Shown: one piece after another, positions 1 to 58,283 of the stretch | Numbering within the stretch: position 1 is the first letter of the stretch | Layout: the number at the start of each line of letters is the position of its first letter | NCBI GenBank assembly: GCA_963771465.1 | Contig: CAVYTU010000015.1 | Location: 1,088,001-1,152,000, forward strand | Length of the DNA: 64,000 nt | Source: an uncultured delta proteobacterium | GTDB lineage: Bacteria > Desulfobacterota > Binatia > UBA9968 | Direction of reading: 5' to 3' | Translations under genes and position numbers: made by a program | Notes under the pieces: generated by a model | The model's input: the letters and a program-made list of their open reading frames with translations, nothing else | Told to the model about the DNA's origin: nothing | The model's database searches: none

Positions 1-892
1 ACGTCATGAACAAAGTTGCGCCTTCCCGATTGCCCAATAGCCTCACCTCATCGACGAGAGTTTTGGACAATGTGAAGAATTGTTTAGCGCCGCGATTACT
101 CGATAATGAACTCCGTGGCCGGTCCGTTGGCAGTTCGAGAACCGGAAGATTTTGCAATTGCGCTGACCAGTAGCGAAGCTGCTTTTCCAATTCTTCGCCT
201 TGCAGCCGTCCTCGCTGCCACACGGCGTAGTCGGCGTACTGAATTGGCAATTCGGGGAGCGGGCTTGGCAGACCCTGAACAAACGAGTTGTAAAGCGCAG
301 TCAGCTCGCGCAAAAAAACCCCGCCTGACCATCCGTCGGAAGCGATATGATGCTGCACTTCGACTAGAACATGGGAATGGAGACTCAATCGGACCAGCAT
401 TACGCGTAGCGGCAGGTCCCTGCTAAGATCGAATGGCCTTTCTCTGAGCTCAGCAGCGATTCGCTGCACTTCATCGTGCCGTCGACTTTCAATAACGTCA
501 CTGATGTCGAAGACGAGCAAGTCAACATTCTCGACTGTGCCGATCCGTTGCACGGGTTCTCCACCCTCGATCAGACTGTAGGTGGTACGCAGCACCTCAT
601 GCCTATCGATGATGGCATGGACTGCACTGCGCAGCGCATCAATATCAAGCGGTCCGTCCAAACGAAGCGCCGATCTCTCGTTATAAGCACAACTTTCAGG
701 ATCCAATTGGTTGAGAAACCACAATCGCTGCTGCGCGAACGATAGTGGTGCTGAGTCTCCACGAGCTCGACGCGGGATGGTCAAGTTCTCACCTCGACTG
801 CCACGGCCTTGCTGTAATTTGAGCTCAAGGAGCGCTCGCTTCGCCGGCGAAAGACCCGCAAGACGCTCTGTCAACTTGTCGGTTTCCATCAT
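1..892 (-). CDS. NRPS, N-terminal docking peptide plus condensation domain (partial, runs off left edge)
   Basis: Not in the ORF track. Manual translation from ATG 892 is open to the edge: MMETDKLTERLAGLSPAKRALLELKL...PLSFAQQRLWFLNQL...RHEVLRT...HHIASDGWS...QYADYAVWQR...GATLFMT. ATGA overlap with the upstream gene stop at 889-891. Confidence 0.93.
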   Translation of the reverse strand, partial: MMETDKLTERLAGLSPAKRALLELKLQQGRGSRGENLTIPRRARGDSAPLSFAQQRLWFLNQLDPESCAYNERSALRLDGPLDIDALRSAVHAIIDRHEVLRTTYSLIEGGEPVQRIGTVENVDLLVFDISDVIESRRHDEVQRIAAELRERPFDLSRDLPLRVMLVRLSLHSHVLVEVQHHIASDGWSGGVFLRELTALYNSFVQGLPSPLPELPIQYADYAVWQRGRLQGEELEKQLRYWSAQLQNLPVLELPTDRPRSSLSSNRGAKQFFTLSKTLVDEVRLLGNREGATLFMT

Positions 893-3800
893 TGCTCCGT
901 CTTCGTTAGCCGGTCTTTGTAGCCTTGCTCAGCATCGTCATTAGACATCGATTCTAGCTCCTCCAGAATTCGTTCCATTTCCGTTTCATTCATTTGTCCA
1001 GTCTGCTGCCGGGTTATGACCGTCGCTAAATCTCCTACCGTCGGCGCTTCGAACAGGCTGCGCAATGGAATATCCAATTTGAGAATAGCTCGCATTCGTG
1101 ACACCACCTGCGTAGCAAGTAACGAATGCCCGCCCAACTCAAAAAAGTTGTCGTCCATCCCAACCCTATCCACGCGCAATACTTCCGCCCATATCTCCGC
1201 TATCTTTTCTTCCACCGGCGTTCGCGGCGCAATAAATTCACTGCGTTGAACTGATCCCGGCGCCGGCAATAATCCGCGGTCTACTTTGCCACTCGGAGTT
1301 AACGGCAATTCATCCAACCGCACTAGGGCGGAAGGAATCATATACTCGGGAAGTCTTTGCTTGAGATATTTCCTCACATCCGAAGCGTCGAACGACTGTT
1401 CCCGCCGCGCTACCAAATAAGCCACGAGCCGCTTGTCCCCAGAATGGTCCTCCCGAACCATTGCAATTGCTTCTCGTATCGCCAGATGTTGAGCGAGCGT
1501 CGTCTCGATCTCGCCCAACTCAACCCGATAACCGCGTATCTTTATCTGATGATCTATTCGTCCCAAAAACTCGATGTTCCCATCCGCTAGGTAACGAGCG
1601 TGATCGCCGGTCCGGTACAAGCGCCTGGGCGGCTCCCCGCCCAAGGAGTGATAGATGAATTTCTCCGCCGTCAGCTCGGGCTGGTTTAAGTAACCTCGCG
1701 CCAAACCGTCTCCGCCGATGTGGATCTCACCAACTACACCGATTGGAACCGGTGCTAAATATTGATCGAGAATGTAGATTTGCGTATTCGCAATCGGCCG
1801 GCCTATCGGCACCCAACCTGGTGAATCATTTTCACGACATTCGTAATAGGTTGCGTCAATCGCGGCTTCCGTCGGACCGTACAGATTGATTAACGGCACG
1901 TTTAGCTGCCGACGAAACCGAGTGTTCAGCTCCGCCGATAAAGGCTCGCCACCGCAAAAAACACGGCGCAAACTGCCACACTTCGCCATGTTTTCCTGCA
2001 GCATCATTTTGAGCAATGTGGGCCCTACTTGTAGAATAGTAATTCGTTCGTTCAGCAAAAACTTGGCCAGATATTCAGCGTCCCTATAGCCTTCGGGCCT
2101 CGCCAACACCAATTGTGCGCCGGAGATCAATGGAGCGAAAAACTCCCACACCGAGGCATCAAAACTGAGCGGCGTTCTCTGTGCCACACGATCATCCTGA
2201 GCCAGTGGAAACGCTTCGAGCATCCACATCATGTGATTACAGATCGAGCTATGGGGTATCGCTACCCCCTTCGGGTTTCCAGTTGAACCCGAGGTGTAGA
2301 TCACGTAGGCGATATTGCCATTGTCGGCTTCGCTGGGAAGGTTCGCCGTGCTTTCGCCAGCGACTTTTTGCCATTCCTGGTCTAGGTAAACCGTCTGTCC
2401 GTCATACTTCGGCAGTCGTCGCGACAGCGCTTGGAAGGTCAATAGCACCGCGACCCCGCTATCGTTCAACATGTATCCCAGTCGTGCTTCTGGATAGGTT
2501 GGATCCAACGGCAGGTAGGCTCCACCACTCTTGAGCACTCCCAACAAAGCGATGACCATCTCAAGGGATCGCTCTAGGCACATGCCCACCACAATGTCTG
2601 GTCCAACGCCGAGCTTGCGTAGGTAACGCCCCAGTTGGTTGGCGCGATCGTTCAGTTCTCGGTATGTGAACTGCTGGTCTTCAAAAACAATAGCCACGGC
2701 TCCAGGCGTTCGCTCGACCTGCTCTTCAAACAATTGATGAATACATTTGTTCGAAGGATAATCCCGCTTGGTGTCGTTCCACTCCTCCAAAAGCTGATGC
2801 TTCTCCGGTTCGGTGAGCAACGGTAAGTCACTTATCCGCTGGTTCGGATTGGTCACTATCCCTTCAAGCAAGGTTTGAAAATGGCCAAGCATGCGACACA
2901 CCGTGGTTGAATCAAAAAGCTCCGTGGAGTATTCAAGCTGCCCCTCGAACCCTTCCGTGGTTTCAGTCAAAGCCAAAGTGAGATCAATTTTCGCAGCGCT
3001 TTGGTGAATATTTATCGGGCTAACCACTAACTCCGGCACCGTAAAATCATTTCTAGGATAATTCTGTAATGCGAACATTACTTGAAACAATGGTGACACG
3101 CTCAGAATGCGCTCCGGCCGAAGTTCCTCCACCAGTTTTTCAAACGGCAAGTCCTGATGTGCATAGCTCTGCAGCGCTGTCCGCTTTACCTTGGACAGTA
3201 ACTCGCGAACAGTTGGTTTGCCGGAGAGATCGCTGCGCAATACCAGCGTATTCGCGAAAAATCCAATCAAACCTTCCAATTCCACGTAATTTCGGTTAGC
3301 TATCGGTGATCCAATACAAATGTCCTCCTGGCCACTGTAGCGAGACAGCAATGTTTGAAAAGCCGCTAACAATGTCATGAACAGCGTGACGCCCTCATTG
3401 CGACTCAATCGCTTAATTCCTTGGGTTAGCTCCCTGGAAAGCTTAAATGCGCGTCGGGCTCCTCGATAACTTCGTATTGCGGGCCTAGGCCGATCCGTGG
3501 GTAGCTGTAGCGTGGGCAGATCTTGGAGCTGTTTTTTCCAGTAATCTAACTGGCTCGCTACAATCGTTCCGCTCAACCATTCGCGCTGCCATGCGGCGTA
3601 GTCAGCGTACTGAATCGGTAATTCAGGAAGTGAAACTGATTTTCTTTCCAAAAATGCTTTGTAGAAAACCGCCAACTCGCGCCACAAGATGCCGGAGGAC
3701 CAGCCGTCCGATGCAACGTGGTGCATGACGACGACGAGAACATGGTGATTCAATTCTAAACGCAGTAACCCGGCGCGCAGCATTTGATCTCGCCTCAGAT

Positions 3801-4164
3801 CGAATAGACGCTCCGTCAAATCAGCGATCATTCGCTGCACTCGCCCGTCTCGTTCGCTCTGGGGGCATGCAGATAGGTCGATGATGGCAAGTTCAACAGC
3901 TTGCGGCGGGCCAATCTGCTGAATCGGATTACGGCCTTCGTCCACGATATAGGTTGTTCTTAATACTTCGTGCCGCTCAACGATTGCATCCAGGGCACTC
4001 CTCAGCGCACCCACATCTAATGTTCCATCGAGGCGAAGCGCCCTCGCCATATTGTACGCGCAATTTTCTGGCTCCAGTTGATTTAAGAACCACAGTCGCT
4101 CCTGCGCGAACGATAACGGAACGAACTGTCGATCTGTTTTCCTCGGAATGAATTGTTTCTGCAT
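889..4164 (-). CDS. NRPS module C-A-T, predicted Gln-activating
   Basis: HHVASDGWS; A3 YTSGSTGNPKG; A4 FDASVWE; A5 NLYGPTE; T GGHSL. Pocket read by eye as DAWQFGLIDK, the established Gln signature. ORF is open to 4221, but ATG 4164 avoids overlap with the upstream gene. Confidence 0.92.
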   Translation of the reverse strand: MQKQFIPRKTDRQFVPLSFAQERLWFLNQLEPENCAYNMARALRLDGTLDVGALRSALDAIVERHEVLRTTYIVDEGRNPIQQIGPPQAVELAIIDLSACPQSERDGRVQRMIADLTERLFDLRRDQMLRAGLLRLELNHHVLVVVMHHVASDGWSSGILWRELAVFYKAFLERKSVSLPELPIQYADYAAWQREWLSGTIVASQLDYWKKQLQDLPTLQLPTDRPRPAIRSYRGARRAFKLSRELTQGIKRLSRNEGVTLFMTLLAAFQTLLSRYSGQEDICIGSPIANRNYVELEGLIGFFANTLVLRSDLSGKPTVRELLSKVKRTALQSYAHQDLPFEKLVEELRPERILSVSPLFQVMFALQNYPRNDFTVPELVVSPINIHQSAAKIDLTLALTETTEGFEGQLEYSTELFDSTTVCRMLGHFQTLLEGIVTNPNQRISDLPLLTEPEKHQLLEEWNDTKRDYPSNKCIHQLFEEQVERTPGAVAIVFEDQQFTYRELNDRANQLGRYLRKLGVGPDIVVGMCLERSLEMVIALLGVLKSGGAYLPLDPTYPEARLGYMLNDSGVAVLLTFQALSRRLPKYDGQTVYLDQEWQKVAGESTANLPSEADNGNIAYVIYTSGSTGNPKGVAIPHSSICNHMMWMLEAFPLAQDDRVAQRTPLSFDASVWEFFAPLISGAQLVLARPEGYRDAEYLAKFLLNERITILQVGPTLLKMMLQENMAKCGSLRRVFCGGEPLSAELNTRFRRQLNVPLINLYGPTEAAIDATYYECRENDSPGWVPIGRPIANTQIYILDQYLAPVPIGVVGEIHIGGDGLARGYLNQPELTAEKFIYHSLGGEPPRRLYRTGDHARYLADGNIEFLGRIDHQIKIRGYRVELGEIETTLAQHLAIREAIAMVREDHSGDKRLVAYLVARREQSFDASDVRKYLKQRLPEYMIPSALVRLDELPLTPSGKVDRGLLPAPGSVQRSEFIAPRTPVEEKIAEIWAEVLRVDRVGMDDNFFELGGHSLLATQVVSRMRAILKLDIPLRSLFEAPTVGDLATVITRQQTGQMNETEMERILEELESMSNDDAEQGYKDRLTKTEQ

Positions 4165-4189
4165 AAAGTCTCGCCCCGCAACGGTTTCC

Positions 4190-5824
4190 CTATTCGGTCG
4201 GATAAGCGGCAAAGGGATCAACCGTCACATTGATGCAGGCCGCGCTACCCGAAGCCAAAGATCGTTCCAACGCTGGTTTTAATTGTTCGGGACGCACTAC
4301 ATGTTCGGCATGACCGCCGAAGGCACGCATAATGTTCTCGTAGTGAATGTCGGGTTGAAACATGGTGATCCGCTCCTGGCAATTTGGGAAGAAGGATTTC
4401 TCCATGATCGCACCCGTATTGCCCTCATTGTTGACCACGACGACAATGACGGGAATTCGATGGCGGACGGCCGTCTCCATATCCATAGCGCTCAACGCGA
4501 AACCCATATCGCCGCACACCGCGACAACCATCCGATCTGGCTGAGCGAGTTTCGCGCCGATTGCAAAGGGAACTCCGACTCCCATACAGCCATTACTCCC
4601 CGCGGTAAATCGGGACGCTGGCAAGTAAGCGGGTAAGACCTGCTGTCCAGCAGCCATGGAAACGTTGCCGTCGAGTACACAGATCGCGTCGCGCGGCAGA
4701 AACTCTTTGATCTCCTTGAACATGCGATGTGGTGACATGGGCAGCGCGGCACAACTCATATGCGCGTCCCGTTTGCGTTGTCTACGTTCTCGCTCCGCTT
4801 CGAGTTCTGTGAACCACGGCTGCAAATTCCCTTTCGGCGCGGCATTCATTTTATGCGTCAGACGAGCCAAGATTTTCTGCAGAGCCAACTTTACATCGCC
4901 AACGATTCCGATCGTCGGAGCGCGATTCGCCCCAATCTCACGCTCATGAATATCGATCTGTATCAATTTCGCATCCCGCGCGATCTGTGTACCGAAGCGA
5001 AAAGTCCAATCCAGCCGGGCGCCCAATAACAAAACCACGTCCGCCTTTTGCTGGAGGAGCCCCCGCGCATCGTTAAGACATCGCAGGTGATCGTCCGGCA
5101 AATAGCCCCGGCCCATGGGGGATGTGATAAATGGAATATCAAACTCATCGGCCATCCGTCTTAGTTCCGCGTACGGCTCGGACCAACGAACTCCCTTGCC
5201 GACAATCATGGCTGGCCGCTGCGCGTGCAAGAAAAGCTCGGCCGCCGCCTCTATCTTGCTCTCGTCGAGTTGTGGCATGTCGGCGGATACGACCGCGGAA
5301 TCGTCGGACGACTCACCCATAGCCGTCAAAACGTCCTCAGGCATATCAAGGTACACCGGTCCAGGCCGTCCGCTCATGGCGATTCGGAAGGCCTCTTGGA
5401 TGTGATCTTGAATTTGCGAAGTTTTTTCGACTACTGCGGCCCATTTCGTTATCGAATGAAAAATCGACACTGCGTCTAGCTCTTGAAATGAACCCATGCC
5501 GCGCATACTCAACGGCCGTCTGCCACCCAAGACCACCAACGGCCAACAGTTATCCTTGGCAACAAGAATGCCCGTCGCAGCGTTAGTGATCGCCGGTCCC
5601 GCCGAGAATAGCGCCACCGCGGCGATGCGTCCGATGACGTAGTTCTGGGCGAGCGCCATCAACACGCCAGCTTGTTGATTCCGTACGCCGATCGGACGAA
5701 TACCCAGCTCAGCGCAATTCGAAAAAGTTTCTCTGACGGGTGTGCCCGCTACGCAGTACACATGGGTGACGCCTAAGCCCTTCAAGCTATGCGCCACCAA
5801 TGTATGACCATTGATTCTGGTCAA
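4190..5824 (-). CDS. ThDP-dependent enzyme, oxalyl-CoA decarboxylase / 2-hydroxyacyl-CoA lyase family
   Basis: GSFQELD, SGRPGPVYLDMP, PMGRG, LGARLDW, GSNGCMGVGVPFA and the ThDP motif GDMGF...VNN. Confidence 0.85.
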   Translation of the reverse strand: MTRINGHTLVAHSLKGLGVTHVYCVAGTPVRETFSNCAELGIRPIGVRNQQAGVLMALAQNYVIGRIAAVALFSAGPAITNAATGILVAKDNCWPLVVLGGRRPLSMRGMGSFQELDAVSIFHSITKWAAVVEKTSQIQDHIQEAFRIAMSGRPGPVYLDMPEDVLTAMGESSDDSAVVSADMPQLDESKIEAAAELFLHAQRPAMIVGKGVRWSEPYAELRRMADEFDIPFITSPMGRGYLPDDHLRCLNDARGLLQQKADVVLLLGARLDWTFRFGTQIARDAKLIQIDIHEREIGANRAPTIGIVGDVKLALQKILARLTHKMNAAPKGNLQPWFTELEAERERRQRKRDAHMSCAALPMSPHRMFKEIKEFLPRDAICVLDGNVSMAAGQQVLPAYLPASRFTAGSNGCMGVGVPFAIGAKLAQPDRMVVAVCGDMGFALSAMDMETAVRHRIPVIVVVVNNEGNTGAIMEKSFFPNCQERITMFQPDIHYENIMRAFGGHAEHVVRPEQLKPALERSLASGSAACINVTVDPFAAYPTE

Positions 5825-7701: not shown

Positions 7702-7713
7702 ATTTTTTCGAAC

Positions 7714-8070
7714 TCAGGACCAACCGTAGCCGGTTGCTTGTTTGAAACCTCCGGCACAAGAAAAATCGATTGACGTCGGCAACAGATTTCTCATGGTGAT
7801 GCCTCTAACTAACCGTTTCCTTGGCGACCGACTGTTCCGCGTGTTTCTCTGCCATCGCCTCGACCTCGCGGAGCATTGCACTAGTTCTGGCCCAGACTTT
7901 CCATGGTCCGGCAAGACGTCTCGATCCAGTTTGCCAGGCGCAACAGGTCTGCTGGTCTTGAAAACTCCTAGCATTGTAGCAATGGCATCAGCCTCGTGAT
8001 CGACCAACGCAGCGACTGGTTCCTTCTTCGCTCCACTCCGGCAGAATTTTAAACGTAACTTGGTTGACAT
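7714..8070 (-). pseudogene. Collapsed remnant of an A-T didomain gene
   Basis: EPVAALVDHEADAIATMLGVFK matches the neighbours' A-domain N-terminal segment (EPIALLFDHDIEVVCAILGVLK). It is almost directly joined to GKLDRDVLPDHGKSGPEL, matching their A10/linker (GKVDRRALPAADKSRPEL). Confidence 0.65.
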
Positions 8071-12039: not shown

Positions 12040-12046
12040 CTGGCGT

Positions 12047-14035: not shown

Positions 14036-14048
14036 CTCTGTTGCGTCA

Positions 14049-23371: not shown

Positions 23372-23372
23372 G

Positions 23373-25364
23373 TTATTTATTGCTCATGCTTTTCGGACTT
23401 CCTGCAGGAAGCTGTTTCTGCGCTTCTAGCTCCGTCATAGCCTCCAACTCGCGCAGGATCTGCGCGAGCTCTTCGTCGCTCGCAGGCCTCGCTTGATTCT
23501 GCTTGATGATGGCCGCCATCCCGGCTACGGTCGGCGAATCGAAGAGTGCCCTCAAAGGCAGATCAAGCTGGAATGCTTTAATGACCCGGGAAATGACACT
23601 CGATGCCACCAACGAATGGCCACCGAGTTCGAAGAAGTTGTCGTGGATACCAACCTTTTCCAGTGATAACGCCTGAGCCCAAATTTGCACCAGCTGTCGC
23701 TCAGCGTCACTGCGCGGTGCAACGTACCCCACATCCAATTCCGGCCGAACTCTTGCAACATCGGGCAACCCGGCACGATCAATCTTTCCGTTCGGGGTTA
23801 GCGGGAACTCATCCAACCTGACAAACGCCGAGGGAACCATGTAATCGGGGAGTAATCTGCTCAAAAATTCCCGCAGCTCGCTTGTGGTCGGAGCTCGCTG
23901 TGCTGCTGAGATGATATACCCGATCAGTCGAGTCTCCGACGATCCATTGTCCCGTCCAACCACCACAGCGTCTCGGATTGCTGCATGGCGACGCAGAGTA
24001 TTTTCAACCTCCCCTATCTCGACGGCGTAACCGCGGATCTTGACGCGAAAATCATTGCGCCCCTTATGGACTAGACAACCGTCAGCGAGCATCAGCCCGA
24101 AATCGCCAGTATAGTACAACCGCTCATCGGACCCCTGTGGATCGGCTTTGAATTTTGCTTCGGTAAGGTCGGGCCGACGCCAATACCCGGGCGAGAGGTA
24201 CCGGCTGCGCACTACGATTTCGCCGACTTCGTTGACCCCAACCGCTTTGCCCTTGTCGTCAAGTAACAGAATGGTTTTCCCCTCAACTGCGTAACCTACC
24301 GGCAGTTCGTTTCCGGGAAACGGTACGTCTGCATCGATGAACAATGCGCAAAGCGGGCCCGTTTCAGTGGATGACAGTCCGTTGACCAGAGTACAGCTCC
24401 GCGAAAATTGCTTGCGAAATAATTCTACGTCACTCGTGTAGGCAGGTTCGCTTCTTAACCGCAGGAAACGAAGGTCGGGAAAGGCCCACGTATCGTCGAG
24501 ATTTTGGCACAGGCTTCGGAAGAGCGTCGAGCTAATTAGACAAACTGATATTTTTTCTTCTACCAGCCAGTAGGCGAGGCGTCGTACTCCTTGTTTATTC
24601 ACGTCGAAAGGACAAAGGGTCGCGCCGGTAAGCAGTGAATTGAAAATATTGGTGATCGCATTTGAAGTATTAGCTGGTAATAGCGCCATTCGATCGTGCT
24701 CACCAACACCGTTTTCGCATGTGTGTAAGCGAACGCGGTGCTGTAAGTTGCGGTGCGTTTGAATCACTGCTTTGGGCCGACCTGTGGATCCAGACGTGTA
24801 AACCAAATATGCGTATTCACTGGGCGGTATCGCCAGGCAAAGGTTTTGAGCGTTATGCTCATTGGCGATCGAATCGAACGCAACGCACTGGGGGGTAACG
24901 CTCCATCGTGGCTGCGTCGCCACGCCTTCGGTTTTATCGGAAATCACCAACCGCGCTCCGGAATCCTCTAATATTGTATTGATTCGCGATTGTGGAAATG
25001 AGGGATCTAACAAGACAAAGAACCCGCCAGCCTTTAGGACCCCGAGCAGGGCCGCGGTTTGTTCAATGCCTTTTTCTAGGAAAATTCCAACAGGCACCGC
25101 CTCCGCTAATCGCTTGGATTGGACGGAGTGGGCAACTCGATTGGCCAAGTCATTGAGCTCTGCGTAAGTAATCGAACGATCATCGGCCTTGACCGCAACT
25201 CGATTGGGATAAAGCTGTACGACCTTCTCAAACCGCTCCGGAATTGATTGCTCAACTTCGTCGATCGGAATGCCAACGCACCGATCCGCAAGATGGCAAA
25301 GGTCATCCCCGCGTTCTTGCTTTTCCGGCAGCAGTCCGACGTTCTGTTTTAGAGAATCACTCAT
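23373..25364 (-). CDS. Stand-alone non-canonical A-T didomain
   Basis: YTSGSTGRPKA, A4 region ANTSNAI, SSTET, YYTGD, TPNGKIDR, GGHSL. ATGAGTGA overlap with a GAGGA RBS places the start at 25364. Confidence 0.92.
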   Translation of the reverse strand: MSDSLKQNVGLLPEKQERGDDLCHLADRCVGIPIDEVEQSIPERFEKVVQLYPNRVAVKADDRSITYAELNDLANRVAHSVQSKRLAEAVPVGIFLEKGIEQTAALLGVLKAGGFFVLLDPSFPQSRINTILEDSGARLVISDKTEGVATQPRWSVTPQCVAFDSIANEHNAQNLCLAIPPSEYAYLVYTSGSTGRPKAVIQTHRNLQHRVRLHTCENGVGEHDRMALLPANTSNAITNIFNSLLTGATLCPFDVNKQGVRRLAYWLVEEKISVCLISSTLFRSLCQNLDDTWAFPDLRFLRLRSEPAYTSDVELFRKQFSRSCTLVNGLSSTETGPLCALFIDADVPFPGNELPVGYAVEGKTILLLDDKGKAVGVNEVGEIVVRSRYLSPGYWRRPDLTEAKFKADPQGSDERLYYTGDFGLMLADGCLVHKGRNDFRVKIRGYAVEIGEVENTLRRHAAIRDAVVVGRDNGSSETRLIGYIISAAQRAPTTSELREFLSRLLPDYMVPSAFVRLDEFPLTPNGKIDRAGLPDVARVRPELDVGYVAPRSDAERQLVQIWAQALSLEKVGIHDNFFELGGHSLVASSVISRVIKAFQLDLPLRALFDSPTVAGMAAIIKQNQARPASDEELAQILRELEAMTELEAQKQLPAGSPKSMSNK

Positions 25365-28300
25365 GGCGATCCTCGCCTGCAGGTCGCGCGCGTTCTCCAG
25401 CAAGCCGCGTATGCACTTCTGCTTCCGTCATCAATTCCGCCTCGCCCAGCAGGTGCGCTAACTCGGCCTCGCTTACCTGCTTCCATTGGGTCTGCGTGAT
25501 GATAACGGCCATCTCGGCTACCGTCGGCGATTCGAACATGTGACGTAGCGGCAGGTCATCAATGGAAAAAGCACTGCGTATTCGCGACATGATTTGGGTA
25601 GCAAGTAACGAATGTCCTCCCAGATCGAAGAAGTTGTCGTAGATGCCGACCTTGTCGAGATTGAGCACTTTGCCCCATATAGCGACGAGCGTTTCCTCGA
25701 TCGGTGTGCGCGCTGGCTGGTAAACATTCGCCAATTGTAGTCCGTTTTGATCTGGCGCCGGTAGCGCTCGGCGGTCTACTTTGCCGCTCGGTGTCAATGG
25801 AAATTCATCCAACGGCACCAGAGCGGCGGGAATCATGTACTCAGGTAGTTTGTGCTTGAGATACTGTCTCACTTCAGAAGCGTCGAAGGACTCTTTCGCA
25901 CGCGCTACCACATAACCCACGAGCCGCTTGTCTCCGGGCGCATCTTCTCGCACCACCACCACCGAACTCTGAACCATTGGGTGTTGACCGAGCACGGCCT
26001 CGATTTCCCCAAGCTCGATACGGTAGCCGCGCACCTTGACCTGGTTATCCACGCGACCAATGAACTCGATGTTGCCATCCGGCAAGTAACGAGCGAGATC
26101 ACCGGTCTTGTACAAACGCCGGGCCGGTTCTCCGTTGAAGGAATGATAGATGAACTTCTCGGCCGTCACCTCCGGCCGGTTCAGATATCCTCGAGCCACT
26201 CCGTCACCGCCAACGTAGATCTCTCCGACGACACCAATAGGCACTGGATTGCGGTGAGCATCAAGTATGAATATCTGCGTATGCGCAATAGGTCGGCCAA
26301 TGGTTTGCGGGCCATCAACGGTCCGGCAGGTCCATGTCGAATAAGTTGTGCATTCGCTGGGCCCGTAAAGATCGTGGACTTTGCGCACCGACGTCGACTC
26401 ATAAATTCGCCGCACCAACTCGGGTCGTAATAGTTCTCCGGCAAGATTGATCACGCGTACCGTCGAAGGTATCGCTTCCAGTCTGAGCAGCTCATTTATC
26501 GCCGATGGCACGGTGTTTAACAGACTCACCTTCGATTTATTTCGGATTGTCGTTAAAGCAAGAGCATTCTCCGCCATAATGATCGTCCCACCGCAGGTCA
26601 ACGGAGCAAAAATCTCGAAGATGGATAGGTCGAAACAGATCGACGTAGAGGCCAGAACCCCGGACAGCTCTTCTTGAGTAAAGGCGGAGCGTACCCAGGA
26701 CAAAAACGCCACCGTGTTGCGGTGTCCAATGGCAACTCCCTTGGGTTGACCCGTCGATCCGGAGGTGTAAATCACATAAGCAAGATTGTCTGGCGTGATA
26801 GAACTTCCAGGATTGGCGTCGCTTTCTTTGGCGATCAACTGCCAAGCGCTGTCCAGGCATACCCGGCGCAAGTGTGGAACTAGAATAGATCGACGAGCGG
26901 TATCGTCTAGGCTCACCTCTCGATCTTCAAATGATTTTCCTCGCGTTAGCAGAAGCGCTGCCTGCGCATCGGCCAGCATGAACTCCAGACGCTCCGCGGG
27001 ATAGCTTAGATCGAGCGGTACATAAGCTCCGCCGGCTTTGAGTACACCCAATACCGCGACGATCATTTCTATCGACCGGTCAATGCAGATACCGACCAGC
27101 ACTTCGGGACCAACATTCCGTTTACGTAAGTAATGAGCGAGTTGGTTGGCGCGTCTATTCAGTTCGCGATAGGTTATCCGCTGATTTTCAAAAATCACGG
27201 CTAAGGCGTCCGGAGCACGCACCACCTGTTCTTCAAAGACTTCGTGGATGCATTTGTCCTTGGAATCCGCTCGCTTTGTGTCATTCCATTCGACTAGCAG
27301 TTGGTCGCGTTCTGGGTCGGTGAGGATGGAGAGGTCAGCGATAGGGCACTGGGGGTTTTCAACGATGCTTTTCAGAAGGGTTTGAAAATGGCCGGCCATC
27401 CGTTCGATCGTGGACGCATCGAACATGTCCGTACTATAAGCGATAAAGCCATGCAGACCGTTTTCTCTTTCCTCGAGGAACAATTCGATATCGAACCTCG
27501 TCGTGCCCGAATCGAGCTCCAGCTCCTGCACTTCCAAACCGATCAACGCAAGCGGACATGCACTTGAGTTTCTCAGCGTAAACGACACTTGGAACAGCGG
27601 GTTCTGGTTTATGTCGCGGCTGATCTGGAGCTCTTGGACCAATCTTTCAAAGGGCAAATCTTGGTGCGCATACGCCTCTAAGCATCGCTGCCGAACTCGC
27701 GCGAGCAGATCGGCAAACTTTGGATTGCCGGACAGATCGGAACGGAGGGTTAGCAAATTCAGAAAAAATCCGATCGTATGATCCAAGGCGCCATCTTGGC
27801 GAACGGCCATGGGAACACCGATACAAAAATCGTCTTGACCGCTGTAACGGGATAGTAGCGTTTGATAGGCCGCGAGCAACGCCATGAATAGCGTGACGTC
27901 GGCATCTCGGCTGATCTCTTTCAACGATTGGGTTACTGTTGGCGCAAGCGTGAACCATTGCCGTGCTCCTTTACCGTCACGCACTCGGAGGCGCGGGCGG
28001 TCCATCGGCAACCGTAGGTCCGCAATGCCGGCCAGCCGACCGCGCCAATACGCAAGCTGGAAATTGAGAGTTTCCGTCTGTAGCGAATGGCGCTGCCAGA
28101 CCGCAAAATCGGCATACTGAATCGGCACGGATTCAAACTGGAGAGGCTGCTTGTTCACCAGCAACTCGTAAGCGATGGCTAGTTCGCGGCCTAGAATATC
28201 CATCGACCAGCCGTCAAAAATTAGATGATGGACCACGAGGATAAGCACAGATCGTTCGCTACTAAATCTAACCAATTTCACCCGCAACAAGGGGCCCTGG

Positions 28301-30561
28301 CTCAGATCGAAAGCTTGCTGGGCTTGGCTAGCGCAAAAACGAGAAATTGAGCCTGCCCAATTGGTGTCAGCTATAGATGATGACATATCTACGATCGGGA
28401 CATCGATCGTTAGAGCGGCCAAAATTTCTTGATGCGGCTTTCCGTCCGTGGACCGAAAAACCGTGCGCAACGATTCATGACGTTTGATGATTTCATTAAA
28501 CGCGCATTCCAATGCCGCTGTGTCTATGCGGCCATTGACCGCAAATGCAGCGACCAGATTATGCCTGCATGCTTCCGGCTCGAGCTGCTCGAGAAACCAC
28601 AAGCGTTCCTGCCCGAAGGAGAGTGGGAGAGGAAGCGCTCGATTACTCGATGCCAGCAACGGCGCTCGTCTAATAGCATGGGCCAGCGAATATCGTGGAA
28701 CAAAGTCTGCCAAAGCGTTTATAGTCGGCGCATTGAAAAACTCGCTCAACGGGATCTCGCTCTCTAGAACTTCATTGATCCGCACGACAACGCGCATGGC
28801 GGACAACGAATCACCGCCGAGGTCGAAGAAGTTATCATGAGCACCGATACCCCCGACTCCCAATACCTTGCCCCAAATTTCAGCCAGCCGCTGCTGCAAC
28901 GACGATTCGGGCGCGACGAATCGCGTGCCGAGCCCCGGCCGCGTGCGATCCGGCGCAGGAAGCGCTCTACGGTCGACTTTGCCGTTAGCGGTAAGTGGCA
29001 ACGACTCCAGTTGTATGAAAACCGCTGGAATCATATATTCAGGAAGCCTGCTCTTCAGAAAGTTCCGCCACTCATTGCTACTGGGCGCGATATTTTCAGT
29101 GGCAACGAAGTACGCGATCAGCCGGTTCTCATCAGAGGGTTCGTGTTTTCGCGCAACCACAACCACATCGAGGATCCCTGGGAATGGCCGTAACGCGGAT
29201 TCAACTTCCGCGACTTCGACCCCATAACCGCGAATCTTGGCACGATAATCTTTGCGGCCTTTATGAATCAGGCATCCATCGGAAAGCAGGAGACCGAGAT
29301 CCCGGGTGCGGTAGAGTCGCTTCGTTCCACCCAAAGGATCGGGCTCGAAGCGCTCGTCCGTGAGATCTGCGCGGTTCCAATAACCCGGCGACAGGTAGGA
29401 GCTGCGCACGACGATTTCCCCAACTTGATTGACGCCGACACTCTTGCCCGTGTCGTCCAGCAACAGGATGTCTTTACCAGGAACCGGGTAACCGATCGGA
29501 ATCTCGTCGCTATCGATCATACTGTCATGATCCATGAGATAGCTGCTGAGCAAGCAGGTTTCAGCAGGACTGACACCGTTGCCTAATAGACAGCTTGCTG
29601 GAAAAAATTGCCGATACAGTTCGAAATCCGTTTTGCATGCAGCCTCACTCGATATGCGCAATAAGCGCAGGTCGGAAAACCGCTCGCGGCCCATCAGGCT
29701 CGCCGCAAGACTTCGAAACAGCGGCGCGCTCAACGAACAGACCGAGACTTTCTTTTGAATTAACCAGGTGATCAGAGCCTCGATCCCATGGCGCTTCACA
29801 TCAAAGGGCAAGACTACCGCGCCAACTAGAAGCGCAAGGAATGGATGGAGCACGGCCGCCGCAGTTCCGGACGTAAGGTAACTCAACCGATCTCGGTCGC
29901 CGTGATGAAATTCATTGGTGAAAAGCATGACCTGGTGCAGCATATTACGATGCGTCCAGATCACTCCTTTGGGCTCTCCGGTAGAGCCGGAAGTATAAGA
30001 AATAGAAGCCAGCGATTCGGGAGATACGAGCAACCTGGGATTGTCCGCTGCGTAAAACCGATCCGTCGTTGCAAGATCCAGCAGTCGGCAAAGTCCGTCA
30101 GCAAGCTCTCGTCCCAACAAACCAGTCTGCTGCTCAACTAGTACGCACCGGGCACGTGCATCGGCGATGATGTTGCGGGAACGAGTCTTGGGGATAGCCG
30201 GATCGAGCAATACGAAGAATTTCTCCGCCTTCATAGCCGCCAGCATTGCAACGATCAAAGCTGGCTTGCTTTCGAACAGTAGCGCTACCGGTTCCGAACC
30301 GCGGCCGAAGCGTTCGATAATCGAGCGCGCCGCGCGATTGGCGCGCGCGTTCAACTCCCAATAGGTCAATGATTGCGAGTTGGTAACAATGGCCCAGTTG
30401 TCTGGATATTGGCTAACGACTTTCTCAAACCGCGCTGGGATCGATGTCTCAACATCTTCGATGGGAAACTCGACAAACGTTCCCGACGGATGAAAACACT
30501 TATCCCGGATCGCCTGTTGTTCCGGCGGAAGTTTGAAACCGTGATTGAGAGAGTCGTTCAT
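25357..30561 (-). CDS. NRPS A*-T-C-A-T (non-canonical loading module plus predicted Ala module); first gene of the operon
   Basis: First A lacks FDxS; T GGDSL; C HHLIFDGWS; second A has FDLSIFE with pocket DLFNNALTYK, the established Ala signature; T GGHSL. Confidence 0.94.
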   Translation of the reverse strand: MNDSLNHGFKLPPEQQAIRDKCFHPSGTFVEFPIEDVETSIPARFEKVVSQYPDNWAIVTNSQSLTYWELNARANRAARSIIERFGRGSEPVALLFESKPALIVAMLAAMKAEKFFVLLDPAIPKTRSRNIIADARARCVLVEQQTGLLGRELADGLCRLLDLATTDRFYAADNPRLLVSPESLASISYTSGSTGEPKGVIWTHRNMLHQVMLFTNEFHHGDRDRLSYLTSGTAAAVLHPFLALLVGAVVLPFDVKRHGIEALITWLIQKKVSVCSLSAPLFRSLAASLMGRERFSDLRLLRISSEAACKTDFELYRQFFPASCLLGNGVSPAETCLLSSYLMDHDSMIDSDEIPIGYPVPGKDILLLDDTGKSVGVNQVGEIVVRSSYLSPGYWNRADLTDERFEPDPLGGTKRLYRTRDLGLLLSDGCLIHKGRKDYRAKIRGYGVEVAEVESALRPFPGILDVVVVARKHEPSDENRLIAYFVATENIAPSSNEWRNFLKSRLPEYMIPAVFIQLESLPLTANGKVDRRALPAPDRTRPGLGTRFVAPESSLQQRLAEIWGKVLGVGGIGAHDNFFDLGGDSLSAMRVVVRINEVLESEIPLSEFFNAPTINALADFVPRYSLAHAIRRAPLLASSNRALPLPLSFGQERLWFLEQLEPEACRHNLVAAFAVNGRIDTAALECAFNEIIKRHESLRTVFRSTDGKPHQEILAALTIDVPIVDMSSSIADTNWAGSISRFCASQAQQAFDLSQGPLLRVKLVRFSSERSVLILVVHHLIFDGWSMDILGRELAIAYELLVNKQPLQFESVPIQYADFAVWQRHSLQTETLNFQLAYWRGRLAGIADLRLPMDRPRLRVRDGKGARQWFTLAPTVTQSLKEISRDADVTLFMALLAAYQTLLSRYSGQDDFCIGVPMAVRQDGALDHTIGFFLNLLTLRSDLSGNPKFADLLARVRQRCLEAYAHQDLPFERLVQELQISRDINQNPLFQVSFTLRNSSACPLALIGLEVQELELDSGTTRFDIELFLEERENGLHGFIAYSTDMFDASTIERMAGHFQTLLKSIVENPQCPIADLSILTDPERDQLLVEWNDTKRADSKDKCIHEVFEEQVVRAPDALAVIFENQRITYRELNRRANQLAHYLRKRNVGPEVLVGICIDRSIEMIVAVLGVLKAGGAYVPLDLSYPAERLEFMLADAQAALLLTRGKSFEDREVSLDDTARRSILVPHLRRVCLDSAWQLIAKESDANPGSSITPDNLAYVIYTSGSTGQPKGVAIGHRNTVAFLSWVRSAFTQEELSGVLASTSICFDLSIFEIFAPLTCGGTIIMAENALALTTIRNKSKVSLLNTVPSAINELLRLEAIPSTVRVINLAGELLRPELVRRIYESTSVRKVHDLYGPSECTTYSTWTCRTVDGPQTIGRPIAHTQIFILDAHRNPVPIGVVGEIYVGGDGVARGYLNRPEVTAEKFIYHSFNGEPARRLYKTGDLARYLPDGNIEFIGRVDNQVKVRGYRIELGEIEAVLGQHPMVQSSVVVVREDAPGDKRLVGYVVARAKESFDASEVRQYLKHKLPEYMIPAALVPLDEFPLTPSGKVDRRALPAPDQNGLQLANVYQPARTPIEETLVAIWGKVLNLDKVGIYDNFFDLGGHSLLATQIMSRIRSAFSIDDLPLRHMFESPTVAEMAVIITQTQWKQVSEAELAHLLGEAELMTEAEVHTRLAGERARPAGEDRHE

Positions 30562-33247: not shown

Positions 33248-33802
33248 TTACGCGCTCGCCGGCGCGTTTTGCCGGTTCATAAGTTTACTCGTCTTGGCTT
33301 CAGGTTTGTTGCTATCCTGGTCATCGAGCTTGTCGAGCGATTCAAGCATATCGAGGGATTGAAAAAACTCCAACTGATTCGAGTCTGCTAGGACGTCCTG
33401 GGGAATATTGACAGGATTCGAATCGGTAGAGATGTTGACTTTGCCCAACAGCAGTGTAACCGCCAGAACCCCCACAGCAGCCGTACCAAACGCCGGCACC
33501 ATCCATGTTTTCATCGGCGCGAGCCAGGTGCGCCACCAATGTTTCCGCTCGTCCTGCTCGGCAAGCTTAGCGACGGTTTCGCGGTAGTAATTATCCCAAA
33601 AAGTCTGCGGCAGCTTTTGCTGCTCAGCCATGGGCGGCAGCACGCGATAGAGATCGTCGACGAAGCTCTGACAGCCATGGCAAATCGACAGATGCTGCTC
33701 AACACGCCGGCGCTCGACACTGTTATTTTCCCCATAGTAGTGGAGCACGAGATCTTCTTCGAAGGTCTTACAAGCATTGTCCAACGGTAACCCATTTTTC
33801 AT
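33248..33802 (-). CDS. Zinc-binding (zf-HC2) transmembrane anti-sigma factor
   Basis: HLSICHGC (HxxxCxxC), one TM helix, directly downstream of the ECF sigma gene. Confidence 0.85.
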   Translation of the reverse strand: MKNGLPLDNACKTFEEDLVLHYYGENNSVERRRVEQHLSICHGCQSFVDDLYRVLPPMAEQQKLPQTFWDNYYRETVAKLAEQDERKHWWRTWLAPMKTWMVPAFGTAAVGVLAVTLLLGKVNISTDSNPVNIPQDVLADSNQLEFFQSLDMLESLDKLDDQDSNKPEAKTSKLMNRQNAPASA

Positions 33803-33812
33803 AATCGATCTC

Positions 33813-37227: not shown

Positions 37228-37239
37228 TTCATATTCGAT

Positions 37240-38678: not shown

Positions 38679-38704
38679 GGCAAACCAGAAAGAATTTTTT
38701 TAGA

Positions 38705-58256: not shown

Positions 58257-58283
58257 TCTGGCACTACGTAAATTATTGATCGA

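What the first reader, a model, noticed from the sequence alone, without database searches (positions are those of the whole stretch)
1..30561. NRPS operon built from an array of free-standing starter modules: candidate combinatorial assembly line
Seen: seven stand-alone A-T genes, one A-T loading module and one ligase-T fusion (nine loading units) against only four C domains in the window, interleaved with Ala, Ser and Gln elongation modules in one coupled operon. Established: canonical NRPSs are colinear with one loading module, and free A-T proteins normally occur singly beside tailoring enzymes; apart from the single ThDP enzyme, no tailoring enzymes lie between these genes. Inference: the A-T proteins are interchangeable acyl donors feeding shared C domains (a natural product library), or they multiply acylate a scaffold, e.g. 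on Ser hydroxyls.
Basis: partly seen in the sequence, partly recalled or inferred. Interest (0 to 1): 0.92.

Follow-up and report, generated by a model that had tools for sequence, protein, structure and literature searches.

The report
NRPS operon with eight starter modules
One peptide-synthetase operon of an uncultured soil bacterium carries eight different loading units of a special kind that lack the amino-acid-binding residue, plus an oxalate-activating unit, but only four peptide-bond-forming domains, so it probably makes a family of differently capped short peptides.

Summary
On the minus strand lies one tightly coupled operon: A-T-C-A(Ala)-T, four free A-T genes, C-A(Ser)-T, three free A-T genes, ligase-T, a ThDP enzyme, C-A(Gln)-T and C-A(Val)-T-TE. 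The last gene ends 3.3 kb outside the window, and housekeeping genes follow it. The whole cluster therefore has 13 carrier domains, four C domains and one TE.

New here: the seven free A-T proteins and the first A-T of gene 1 are old paralogues (38-57% identity) of one distinct family ('P-type'). This family keeps the catalytic A and T motifs but lacks Asp235 in 211 of 218 members. Members without Asp235 were never found behind a C domain (0 of 87). Pocket residues are conserved within orthologues and differ between paralogues. The family is expanded in the genus, with fused P-P-C-A-T proteins and orphan copies.

The ligase is oxalate-CoA-ligase-like. The ThDP enzyme is like oxalyl-CoA decarboxylase / 2-hydroxyacyl-CoA lyase.

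Best reading (about 0.45): parallel, alternative non-amino-acid starter units feed a few C domains. Docking, substrates and products are inferred, not shown.

The parts
25357..30561 (-). g1: P-type A-T (residues 1-~640) fused to C-A(Ala-type code)-T, with a C-terminal tail
   Evidence: Pfam. The first A-T is 38-46% identical to the free A-T proteins and 31-32% to the canonical A domains. HHLIFDG at residue 778. Its C domain lies in a clade of 12 rows, 11 of which are C domains that follow a P unit in the same protein (support 99).
23373..25364 (-). g2: free P-type A-T with C-terminal tail
   Evidence: Pfam; alignment; pocket SNTLRRGP.
21371..23371 (-). g3: free P-type A-T with tail
   Evidence: Pfam. 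Pocket RALHHSRT, identical in its nearest homologue L090P.
19387..21378 (-). g4: free P-type A-T with tail
   Evidence: Pfam. Pocket SALHVGRN, identical in L122P, which is an A-T-TE protein.
17411..19381 (-). g5: free P-type A-T with tail
   Evidence: Pfam. An 80% identical orthologue lies in L112. dN/dS about 0.17. The pocket is identical in 6 of 6 members of its group. AlphaFold2 mean pLDDT 85.7.
14049..17414 (-). g6: N-terminal 'LSPAKR..LELKLQQ' segment, then C-A(Ser-type)-T and tail
   Evidence: Pfam; N-terminus; HHIASDG. Its C domain is 69% identical to that of g13 and is its sister in the tree.
12047..14029 (-). g7: free P-type A-T with tail
   Evidence: Pfam; alignment.
10048..12033 (-). 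g8: free P-type A-T with tail
   Evidence: Pfam. Its pocket differs at one position from its nearest homologue L087P.
8070..10055 (-). g9: free P-type A-T with tail
   Evidence: Pfam. Its pocket differs at one position from five close homologues.
7702..8069 (-). Collapsed relic of a ninth P-type gene in the g9-g10 gap
   Evidence: Translations of the gap match the P-family profile at positions 84-113, 523-545 (frame 1, E 4.8e-8) and 634-659 (frame 0). An M-N-N start overlaps the g9 stop. This is weak, fragmentary evidence.
5821..7701 (-). g10: oxalate-CoA-ligase-like adenylating enzyme fused to a T domain, without the common tail
   Evidence: Pfam. Best solved relatives are 5ie0, 8aff and 6qjz (oxalate-CoA ligase / oxalyl-CoA synthetase; 406-397 bits); malonyl-CoA synthetase scores 219. 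Best NCBIfam match is the FadD7 family, below its cut-off.
4190..5824 (-). g11: ThDP enzyme of the oxalyl-CoA decarboxylase / 2-hydroxyacyl-CoA lyase-synthase group
   Evidence: Pfam TPP_enzyme N/M/C. Best solved relatives are 8vzc, 8vzf and 6xn8 (335-323 bits); acetolactate synthase scores 191.
889..4221 (-). g12: C-A(Gln-type)-T with tail and no N-terminal LSPAKR segment; the start may be the ATG at 4164
   Evidence: Pfam; N-terminus; HHVASDG.
1..892 (-). g13, 5' part: N-terminal LSPAKR segment and the start of C. The whole gene is C-A(Val-type)-T-TE, 1383 aa, and ends 3259 bases outside the window.
   Evidence: Pfam, (L001:15741-19892, minus strand).

Best explanation
This is one NRPS operon for a short peptide backbone, read from the adenylation codes as Ala-Ser-Gln-Val and released by a terminal thioesterase. 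It is primed in parallel by many alternative non-amino-acid starter units.

Eight 'P-type' adenylation-carrier units (one fused in g1, seven free) each activate a different carboxylic acid that has no alpha-amino group and load it on their own carrier domain. Because such acyl groups have no amine to be extended, they can only start chains.

The free units carry a common two-helix C-terminal tail. The two C-A-T proteins g6 and g13 carry a common N-terminal 'LSPAKRxLLELKLQQ' segment. I infer that the tails dock there, so several donors compete for the donor site of the same C domain. The result would be a set of differently N-capped peptides of different lengths rather than one product.

A ninth starter comes from g10 and g11. 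An oxalate-ligase-like enzyme loads its fused carrier, and a ThDP enzyme like oxalyl-CoA decarboxylase or 2-hydroxyacyl-CoA synthase acts on the tethered thioester. That would give a formyl, oxalyl or 2-hydroxyacyl cap for the Gln module that follows.

Shown: domain content, motif state, family relations, selection and architectures in relatives. Inferred: substrate class, docking, competition and products.
For: 1. The cluster is complete, with 13 T, 4 C and 1 TE. There is no A-less module and no tailoring enzyme besides g11.

2. The eight units are one family: 38-57% identical to each other and 29-39% to the four canonical A domains.

3. Catalytic state. A3, A7 and A8 are intact in the alignment. 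K517 is present in 218 of 218 P-type domains and E327 in 217 of 218. All 13 T domains have GGxS and all 4 C domains have HHxxxDG.

4. Asp235 is absent in 211 of 218 P-type domains but present in 248 of 256 canonical A domains from the same loci.

5. Position. 0 of 87 Asp235-less P domains have a C domain directly upstream in the same reading frame. 3 of the 6 P domains that do have Asp235 have one.

6. The array is old. For 0 of 8 window units is the nearest tip another window unit, and their common ancestor spans 189 of 211 tips.

7. Pocket positions are conserved within orthologue groups. The g5 group is identical in 6 of 6; g3 and g4 are identical to their nearest homologues; g8 and g9 differ at one position. 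The pockets differ between paralogues and are rich in R, K and H.

8. Purifying selection on g5: dN 0.114, dS 0.67.

9. Relatives place several P units before one C domain. Fused P-P-C-A-T proteins are L097 (3417 aa), L099 (2346 aa), L100 (2366 aa) and L134. In L095 two free P genes precede an LSPAKR-tagged C-A-T.

10. In the fused P-P proteins the tail is replaced by a plain linker, as expected of a docking element.

11. Gene order is not conserved. In L112 the g5 orthologue lies before the g1-like gene, not before a g6-like gene.

12. The pair recurs beside P units in L112 and L109, and a g10-like gene follows P genes at the contig end in L124.
Against: No substrate, docking event or product is shown.

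The C domains of g6, g12 and g13 group with ordinary elongation-type C domains, not with the clade of C domains that follow P units. Only the C of g1 lies in that clade (FastTree only). That 7-row group does, however, also hold one C fused behind a P unit (L098) and the L095 C that follows free P genes.

Fusion of two P units in one protein suggests an ordered cooperation that simple competition does not explain.

g12 has no N-terminal docking segment and g10 has no tail, so their hand-over is unexplained.

The A4 region of the P family aligns with gaps (88 of 218 have a gap at position 235), so single pocket assignments there are uncertain.

A relic of a ninth P gene shows that units are also lost, so some may be dispensable.

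Transcription is not shown (one search had no silent control).
Confidence: 0.45

Rival explanations
1. Ordered multi-unit assembly. All or most P-loaded acids end up in one product. For example, hydroxy- or dicarboxylic acids could be joined to each other or to the peptide by repeated use of the four C domains or by the A domains themselves. The free P proteins would then form a non-covalent chain equivalent to the fused P-P-C proteins.
For: Fused P-P-C-A-T proteins exist in four loci. Free P genes that are followed by another P gene still carry the tail. The N-terminal leader is nearly invariant in the family and is modelled as an ordered part of the domain (pLDDT above 90 for residues 11-50).
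Against: No catalytic domain for the extra bonds is present. No Asp235-less P unit follows a C domain (0 of 87), as expected if these units cannot serve as acceptors. Gene order differs between related clusters. The residue after P-P-C is not always one with a side-chain nucleophile. The leader resembles the ordinary C-A linker by my reading, which needs no docking role.
Confidence: 0.15
2. Birth-and-death surplus. Only one or a few P units (for example the one fused in g1, and g5) work in this line. The others are redundant copies on their way out, or silent spares.
For: A collapsed relic of a ninth P gene lies between g9 and g10. The related cluster L112 manages with two P units in the part that is held; the contig ends 450 bases upstream of the match. 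Copy number varies from 0 to 34 among 31 genomes of the genus.
Against: All eight have intact reading frames and motifs. Pocket residues are conserved in orthologues at 52-80% overall identity. dN/dS for g5 is about 0.17. The genes are tightly coupled.
Confidence: 0.15
3. A pool with another cellular role. P-type A-T proteins are free acyl-carrier loaders for a process other than this peptide line, such as modification of lipids or the envelope, or supply to NRPS lines elsewhere. Their presence in the operon would be partly incidental.
For: Three full-length copies in the same genome lie among unrelated housekeeping genes (C12, C13:327540, C18). P pairs with no C domain in the 14-20 kb fetched occur in L101, L105 and L111. 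Cyanobacterial relatives are single A-T-TE enzymes.
Against: P units are fused to C-A-T in 15 rows of the C-domain tree besides g1. The orphans carry the same kind of tail as the operon's units. Seven free copies are translationally coupled inside an NRPS operon.
Confidence: 0.15
4. Trans-complementation or type II NRPS. The free A-T proteins replace missing or dead A domains, or they present substrates to tailoring enzymes, as in SyrB1, Alb04 and the ramoplanin and enduracidin systems.
For: This is the usual role of stand-alone A-T modules in the literature (passages of PMC8949500).
Against: All four C-containing modules have their own A domain with a complete canonical code. There is no C-T module and no halogenase, oxygenase or other tailoring gene.
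Confidence: 0.05

Closest known systems
Two alternative starter modules of anabaenopeptin synthetase (aptA1/aptA2; Rouhiainen et al. 2010, seen only as cited in passages of the review PMC8402340)
   Same: More than one loading unit with different specificity is encoded in one NRPS cluster, and each can start the same downstream line. This enlarges the set of products.
   Different: There, two complete bimodular starter proteins activate amino acids. Here, eight A-T didomains plus one ligase-T lack Asp235. They include free proteins with a common tail, fused P-P forms in relatives, and orphan copies elsewhere in the genome.
Alternative fatty-acyl starter units of puwainaphycin/minutissamide lipopeptides (PMC9016887, seen as search listing and abstract start only; details recalled)
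   Same: Non-amino-acid starter units vary on a nearly constant peptide.
   Different: Those starters are fatty acyl-AMP ligases, and by my recall there are two of them. The P family consists of NRPS-type A domains whose nearest solved relatives are LgrA, TycA and similar proteins.
Stand-alone A-T modules that complement A-less or inactive modules (SyrB1, Alb04, ramoplanin, enduracidin; passages of PMC8949500)
   Same: These are free-standing A-T didomain proteins encoded inside an NRPS cluster and acting in trans.
   Different: They fill a gap in the line. Here no module lacks an A domain.
NRPS-like A-T-TE enzymes
   Same: The closest relatives of the P family in named genomes are cyanobacterial A-T-TE proteins (47% identity; L003, L004). 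P-TE forms occur in metagenomes (L122, L135, L191). Like the alpha-keto-acid-activating NRPS-like enzymes (recalled), they lack Asp235.
   Different: The window's units have no TE or R domain and sit in a multimodular line. Whether they take keto acids was not tested.
Docking-mediated promiscuous subunit pairing in rhabdopeptide-type NRPS and SLiM/beta-hairpin docking (passages of bioRxiv 10.1101/2025.03.13.642309; rhabdopeptide library logic recalled)
   Same: Short terminal elements decide which subunit hands over to which. Loose pairing gives product families.
   Different: The elements here (tail 'E.E.M(S/T)EEEA..L'; head 'LSPAKRALLELKL') are not shown to be of that class, and their binding is not shown.
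Formyl-carrier-protein starter in lactacystin biosynthesis (PMC11730586; abstract and passages read)
   Same: A one-carbon acyl group tethered to a carrier protein starts a hybrid assembly line.
   Different: There formyl-CoA is made from 10-formyl-THF by LctF and loaded by an AT domain. Here I infer an oxalate ligase fused to T plus an oxalyl-CoA decarboxylase-like enzyme. That route did not appear among the 15 of 20 papers listed by the search.

Membership tests
NRPS adenylation-thiolation didomain (ANL superfamily) | AMP-binding, AMP-binding_C and PP-binding domains in this order | tested here: met
   All eight P units and g10.
NRPS adenylation-thiolation didomain (ANL superfamily) | Catalytic core motifs (A3 P-loop, A5 Glu327, A7 Asp, A8, A10 Lys517) and the carrier Ser | tested here: met
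   Alignment. K517 in 218 of 218 and E327 in 217 of 218. GGxS in all T domains. A5 is degenerate around the Glu.
Amino-acid-activating A domain (canonical NRPS code) | Asp235 in motif A4, which binds the alpha-amino group | tested here: not met
   Absent in all eight window P units and in 211 of 218 family members. Present in 248 of 256 canonical A domains of the same loci.
Alternative starter modules (anabaenopeptin type) | Two or more loading units with different specificity in one cluster | tested here: met
   Eight different pocket signatures, conserved in orthologues.
Alternative starter modules (anabaenopeptin type) | Each starter feeds the same downstream module, giving product variants | not testable with these tools
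   Needs reconstitution or metabolite analysis.
Trans-complementing stand-alone A-T (SyrB1/Alb04 type) | A module in the line that lacks a functional A domain | tested here: not met
   g1, g6, g12 and g13 each have C-A-T with complete codes.
Type II NRPS | Tailoring enzymes that act on the carrier-bound substrate, encoded beside the A-T | tested here: not met
   Only g11 lies between the genes. The flanks are radA, bio genes and an amidohydrolase_2 gene on the other strand.
NRPS-like A-T-TE / A-T-R enzymes | A terminal TE or R domain on the same protein | tested here: not met
   The window P units end in a roughly 40-residue tail. Relatives L003, L004, L122, L135 and L191 do have a TE.
Oxalate-CoA ligase (AAE3/Pcs60 type), for g10 | Closest similarity to characterised oxalate-CoA ligases over the whole adenylating domain | tested here: met
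   5ie0 at 406 bits over residues 8-510. The next enzyme class, malonyl-CoA synthetase, scores 219 bits.
Oxalate-CoA ligase (AAE3/Pcs60 type), for g10 | Free-standing enzyme that uses CoA as acceptor; oxalate-binding residues | tested here: not met
   The free-standing feature is not met: g10 is fused to a T domain and so probably loads its own carrier. The second feature, the substrate-binding residues, was not examined.
Oxalyl-CoA decarboxylase / 2-hydroxyacyl-CoA lyase-synthase, for g11 | Three-domain ThDP fold and closest similarity to this group | tested here: met
   Pfam. 8vzc, 8vzf and 6xn8 score 335-323 bits against 191 for acetolactate synthase. The NCBIfam scores are below the curated cut-offs.
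Oxalyl-CoA decarboxylase / 2-hydroxyacyl-CoA lyase-synthase, for g11 | Catalytic and CoA-binding residues; activity on a thioester | not tested
   No residue-level comparison was made.
NRPS docking / communication elements | A C-terminal element of the donor binds an N-terminal element of the acceptor | tested here: inconclusive
   The tail is present on free proteins and lost in fused P-P proteins. The head motif is conserved on C-first proteins that follow P genes. Binding itself is not shown.

The most novel reading that the evidence does not exclude
P-type units form a genome-wide pool of plug-in starter modules. The pool includes the orphan copies scattered among housekeeping genes. Each unit loads a different small, possibly anionic, carboxylic acid. 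All of them dock by one shared tail onto the few LSPAKR-tagged C-A-T proteins. A lineage of uncultured soil bacteria would thus make combinatorial sets of capped peptides by protein-protein promiscuity rather than by colinear modules. In the same line, a carrier-tethered oxalyl thioester is decarboxylated or carboligated by an OXC/HACS-like ThDP enzyme, which would be a new way to make a C1 or 2-hydroxyacyl starter.
Probability: 0.25. Interest if true: 0.85.

Novelty: new variant of a known kind. Interest (0 to 1): 0.62.

Why it matters
If several different starter units really compete for the same condensation domains, this operon is a natural example of combinatorial priming. It would go well beyond the two alternative starters known from cyanobacterial lines, and it could supply portable loading modules and docking tails for NRPS engineering.

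The P family is a large group of adenylation domains, apparently uncharacterised, with non-amino-acid pockets. In the search, 120 of the 120 listed clusters are 46-99% identical to g5. Its substrates would extend the NRPS code.

The oxalate-ligase-T / OXC-like pair suggests carrier-bound C1 chemistry that is now only known with CoA thioesters.

The host probably belongs to Candidatus Binatia. One paper reports only three gene clusters for that phylum and calls them the first described (passages of PMC8692599).

Tried and rejected
Docking test. I sent g6 residues 1-500 against g5 residues 545-656, each with an alignment. The verdict was 'no answer' (scores 0.19 and 0.24; the mark is 0.32; controls were not run). 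This is neither for nor against binding.

Transcription. Two libraries on record as metatranscriptomic hold contigs on the array: X4 in 28 of 30 bins and X19 in 15 of 30. The tool warns that DNA may be present in such libraries.

Joints in the same call. One DNA run (X1) has contigs that skip about 5.4 kb (12112 to 17505, and 12458 to 17865). Their short sides are 44 and 20 letters and other letters lie between. I take these as likely mis-joins through the conserved T/tail sequence, not as a variant array.

Promoter and terminator scans. Counts were no higher than in shuffles (11 against 13.2; 20 against 20.6; 5 against 9.3; 11 against 14.7). They are uninformative.

Rfam at gathering threshold on the whole window gave 0 matches.

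The ESM Atlas returned only generic A-T clusters, with no lead on function or taxon.

NCBIfam has no specific model for the P family; the best hits are generic NRPS models below their cut-offs.

The first genome-contig scan used patterns too specific to g5. Only 4 of the 80 loci (L002-L005) held true family members.

Neighbours of orphan and paired P genes showed no recurrent partner. One orphan lies behind Ldh_2 and aldo-keto-reductase genes (L093), which is anecdotal.

The roughly 480-residue N-terminal extensions of some stop-to-stop frames (L107, L124) have no Pfam domain. They are probably not coding.

The literature search was wasted on an ambiguous term ('A-T-A-T'). The searches listed no paper on arrays of free-standing A-T didomains. 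The library is open-access only, and supplements are closed.

Recent tandem amplification is rejected.

I considered a docking role for the N-terminal leader. It looks like an ordinary C-A linker remnant and is modelled as an ordered part of the A domain, so I left this open at low weight.

Full report
**What is there**

The left half of the window is one minus-strand operon. In order of transcription it reads:

- g1, A-T-C-A-T (25357-30561)
- g2-g5, four A-T genes
- g6, C-A-T (14049-17414)
- g7-g9, three A-T genes
- a 368-nt gap
- g10, a different adenylating enzyme fused to a T domain (5821-7701)
- g11, a ThDP enzyme (4190-5824)
- g12, C-A-T (889-4221)
- g13, which runs off the window

I laid the genome and fetched the neighbouring 20 kb (L001). 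g13 is C-A-T-TE (1383 aa). radA on the other strand and bioF/bioA/bioD-like genes follow it. Upstream of g1 lie an amidohydrolase_2 gene on the other strand, an ECF sigma/anti-sigma pair and F420 biosynthesis genes.

The complete cluster therefore has 13 carrier domains, four C domains and one TE. It has no tailoring gene except g11. The genes overlap by 4 or 8 nt or are separated by at most about 25 nt, apart from the g9-g10 gap.

**The four canonical modules**

Their specificity positions read DLFNNALTYK, DVWHFSLIDK, DAWQFGLIDK and DAFWLGGTFK (positions 299/301 re-read by hand). I recall these as Ala, Ser, Gln and Val codes. All four C domains have HHxxxDG, and all T domains have the serine motif.

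**The A-T units are a family of their own**

The first A-T of g1 is a paralogue of the seven free proteins. They are 38-57% identical among themselves but only 29-39% identical to the four canonical A domains.

The alignment shows three things:

- intact A3, A7, A8 and A10 motifs;
- no FDxS motif, and a degenerate A5 that keeps its Glu;
- a shared N-terminal leader (…LPPEQQAIRDKCFHPSGTFVEFP…) and, on the free proteins, a shared C-terminal tail (…E.E.MTEEEAQK.L…). The tail also ends g1, g6 and g12.

I call these units P-type. In a wider set of 218 P-type and 256 canonical A domains from the same loci:

- Asp235 is absent in 211 of 218 P-type domains and present in 248 of 256 canonical ones.
- Lys517 is kept in 218 of 218, and Glu327 in 217 of 218.

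The seven P-type domains that do have Asp235 form the group found behind C domains. 3 of the 6 that could be scored have a C directly upstream. 0 of 87 Asp235-less P domains do.

A domain that cannot bind an alpha-amino group and is never placed as an acceptor is best read as a loader of non-amino carboxylic acids, which can only start chains. This is inference from established A-domain structure knowledge. No substrate was tested.

The nearest solved structures are ordinary NRPS A domains such as LgrA, TycA and PvdL. An AlphaFold2 model of g5 is confident (mean pLDDT 85.7). It shows the leader as an ordered part of the domain. It shows the tail as two helices of falling confidence behind the T domain.

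**The array is old and under selection**

In a tree of 211 P-type sequences (FastTree), the nearest tip of each of the eight window units comes from another genome or metagenome (0 of 8 are nearest to each other). Their common ancestor spans 189 of 211 tips.

The pocket positions are conserved within orthologue groups:

- identical in 6 of 6 members of the g5 group;
- identical between g3 and L090P, and between g4 and L122P;
- one change in the g8 and g9 groups.

They differ between paralogues and are rich in Arg, Lys and His. The alignment around A4 is gapped, so those two or three positions are uncertain.

g5 against its 80% identical orthologue in L112 gives dN 0.114 and dS 0.67.

The g9-g10 gap holds fragments that match the family profile at its start, middle and tail (weak). 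I read this as a collapsed ninth unit, so units are also lost.

**The family elsewhere**

The window's genome has 14 full-length P-type genes: eight here and six elsewhere. Of the six:

- Two sit as free loading modules in front of C-first NRPS proteins (C8, C13).
- One lies at the downstream end of a fragmented NRPS locus (C14).
- Three are orphans among housekeeping genes (C12, C13:327540, C18).

In the genus, 21 of 31 genomes have at least one copy at E ≤ 1e-190. Counts range from 0 to 34 and are lower bounds, because only 39 candidates per genome were scored.

Architectures seen in relatives and metagenomes:

- P-C-A-T
- fused P-P-C-A-T (L097, L099, L100, L134)
- free P followed by P-C-A-T (L112, L098)
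- two free P genes followed by an LSPAKR-tagged C-A-T at the start of a cluster (L095)
- runs of P genes (three in L125; L114; L124)
- P pairs with no C domain in the stretch fetched (L101, L105, L111)
- P-TE and C-P-TE

Among the 31 genomes, the runs of four and three adjacent free P genes in the window are the longest. Elsewhere at most two are adjacent, by my reading of the coordinates.

Named relatives are few. They are a Candidatus Binatia MAG (65%) and cyanobacterial A-T-TE proteins (47%).

**Which C domains take P-bound donors?**

I built a FastTree of 142 C domains. The C of g1 falls in a clade of 12 rows, 11 of which are C domains fused behind a P unit (support 99). The neighbouring group holds the C domains that follow free P genes in the window's own genome.

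The C domains of g6 and g13 are sisters (69% identity). Together with g12 they lie in a 7-row group (support 97) of otherwise elongation-type domains. That group also contains one C fused behind a P unit (L098) and the L095 C that follows two free P genes.

So the phylogeny neither assigns nor excludes g6, g12 and g13 as acceptors of P-bound acyl groups. This is the main weakness of my reading.

**Docking**

Four observations are consistent with a tail-to-head docking pair shared by many donors and few acceptors:

- The tail is present on every free P unit, including the three orphans.
- It is replaced by a plain linker in the fused P-P proteins.
- The head 'L..R.A.LSPAKRALLE..L' is conserved on C-first proteins that follow P genes in other loci.
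- In the window's genome my motif scan and reading of N-termini found it only on g6 and g13 (a rough regular expression).

Binding is not shown.

**The ligase and the ThDP enzyme**

The nearest solved relatives of g10 are oxalate-CoA ligases (5ie0, 406 bits; the next enzyme class scores 219). Those of g11 are oxalyl-CoA decarboxylases and 2-hydroxyacyl-CoA lyases/synthases (335 bits; acetolactate synthase scores 191).

The pair recurs next to P units in L112 and L109, and a g10-like gene ends the P run in L124.

Because the ligase is fused to a carrier, I infer that oxalate is loaded on the carrier and that g11 acts on the tethered thioester. That would give a formyl, oxalyl or 2-hydroxyacyl group, which the C domain of g12 joins to Gln.

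A formyl-carrier starter is known from lactacystin, made by a different route (PMC11730586, abstract and passages). The search listed no paper on an oxalate route (15 of 20 papers listed).

**Mechanism proposed, and rivals**

The most economical reading is a short peptide line (Ala-Ser-Gln-Val, released by the TE) that can be started at several points by any of nine alternative acyl donors, giving a family of capped peptides.

Fused P-P proteins and free P genes followed by further P genes leave room for an ordered, multi-unit assembly. The relic and the variable copy number leave room for partial redundancy. The orphans leave room for a role outside this line.

Trans-complementation and type II NRPS logic are contradicted by the domain inventory.

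**Organism and habitat**

ClpB of the window is 88-90% identical to proteins named after organisms in public records. Those names are Candidatus Binatia or Binatota in 7 of 9 cases, Chloroflexota in one and Saccharimonadales in one. The genome is therefore probably a member of that uncultured lineage. This rests on submitters' labels only.

Near-identical DNA of the array is held by soil and rhizosphere metagenomes: 20 listed rows from 16 studies, 8 of them with half the sampled words or more. Two of these runs, when laid, cover 29 and 30 of 30 bins.

**Novelty**

Two alternative starter modules are known (passages of PMC8402340), and so are single stand-alone A-T modules that fill gaps (passages of PMC8949500). 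My searches listed no description of arrays of free-standing A-T didomains, or of this Asp235-less family. The library holds open-access papers only, and supplements were closed.

I therefore rate it a new variant of a known kind.

Noticed in passing
window 7702-8069 (minus strand): The only sizeable gap in the operon carries fragments of a P-type gene: a start overlapping the g9 stop, and pieces matching profile positions 84-113, 523-545 and 634-659. It looks like a collapsed ninth unit.
   Followed up: partly
window 4190-7701; L112:7545-11197; L109:2447-5901; L124:6178-8130: An oxalate-CoA-ligase-like enzyme fused to a carrier domain lies next to an oxalyl-CoA decarboxylase / 2-hydroxyacyl-CoA synthase-like ThDP enzyme. 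The pair recurs beside P-type units in other loci. Carrier-bound chemistry of this enzyme pair did not come up in my one search.
   Followed up: partly
L093:8537-12917 (G000:C13, orphan P gene): One orphan P-type gene is preceded on the same strand by an Ldh_2 (malate/L-lactate dehydrogenase family) gene that overlaps it, and by an aldo-keto reductase gene. An MFS_3 exporter gene lies nearby. This may hint at a hydroxy- or keto-acid substrate.
   Followed up: no
window 54243-57437 (+), 57534-59069 (+), 59199-61826 (+): A 1064-residue protein has no Pfam match. Its sequence looks like one long Glu/Gln/Ala/Leu-rich helical (coiled-coil-like) stretch, in a region of strong A-over-T skew (0.27-0.28). 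Two single-domain KaiC-like ATPase genes and clpB follow it.
   Followed up: no
window 36574-40893 (minus strand): A set of F420 cofactor genes: CofC-like, CofD, F420-0:gamma-glutamyl ligase, an F420-dependent NADP oxidoreductase-like gene and a radical SAM gene.
   Followed up: no
window 45613-46686 (+): A gene combines a solute-binding domain with a ligand-gated ion channel domain (Lig_chan). This is a bacterial glutamate-receptor-like channel.
   Followed up: no
window 33248-34388 (minus strand): An ECF sigma factor and a zf-HC2 anti-sigma gene lie 2.7 kb upstream of g1, separated from it by an amidohydrolase_2 gene on the other strand. Any role in regulating the operon is untested.
   Followed up: no
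window 1-32000 against the rest: The operon has a lower G+C content (0.51-0.55 in 2-kb windows) than the right half of the window (0.54-0.60) and than the contigs (0.54-0.57).
   Followed up: no
window 12112-17865, run X1: Contigs of one rhizosphere DNA run join the 3' part of g7 to the 3' part of g5, skipping about 5.4 kb. Their flanks are short and foreign letters lie between. This is probably a mis-join through the conserved T/tail sequence, but a recombined array is not excluded.
   Followed up: no
L096:831-4307; G000:C8:227286-232148: Some C-first NRPS proteins of the genus carry a different, longer N-terminal segment (…L.ADNDHLILNGPKGAL…). By recall it resembles beta-hairpin docking domains. 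The lineage may therefore use at least two docking classes.
   Followed up: no
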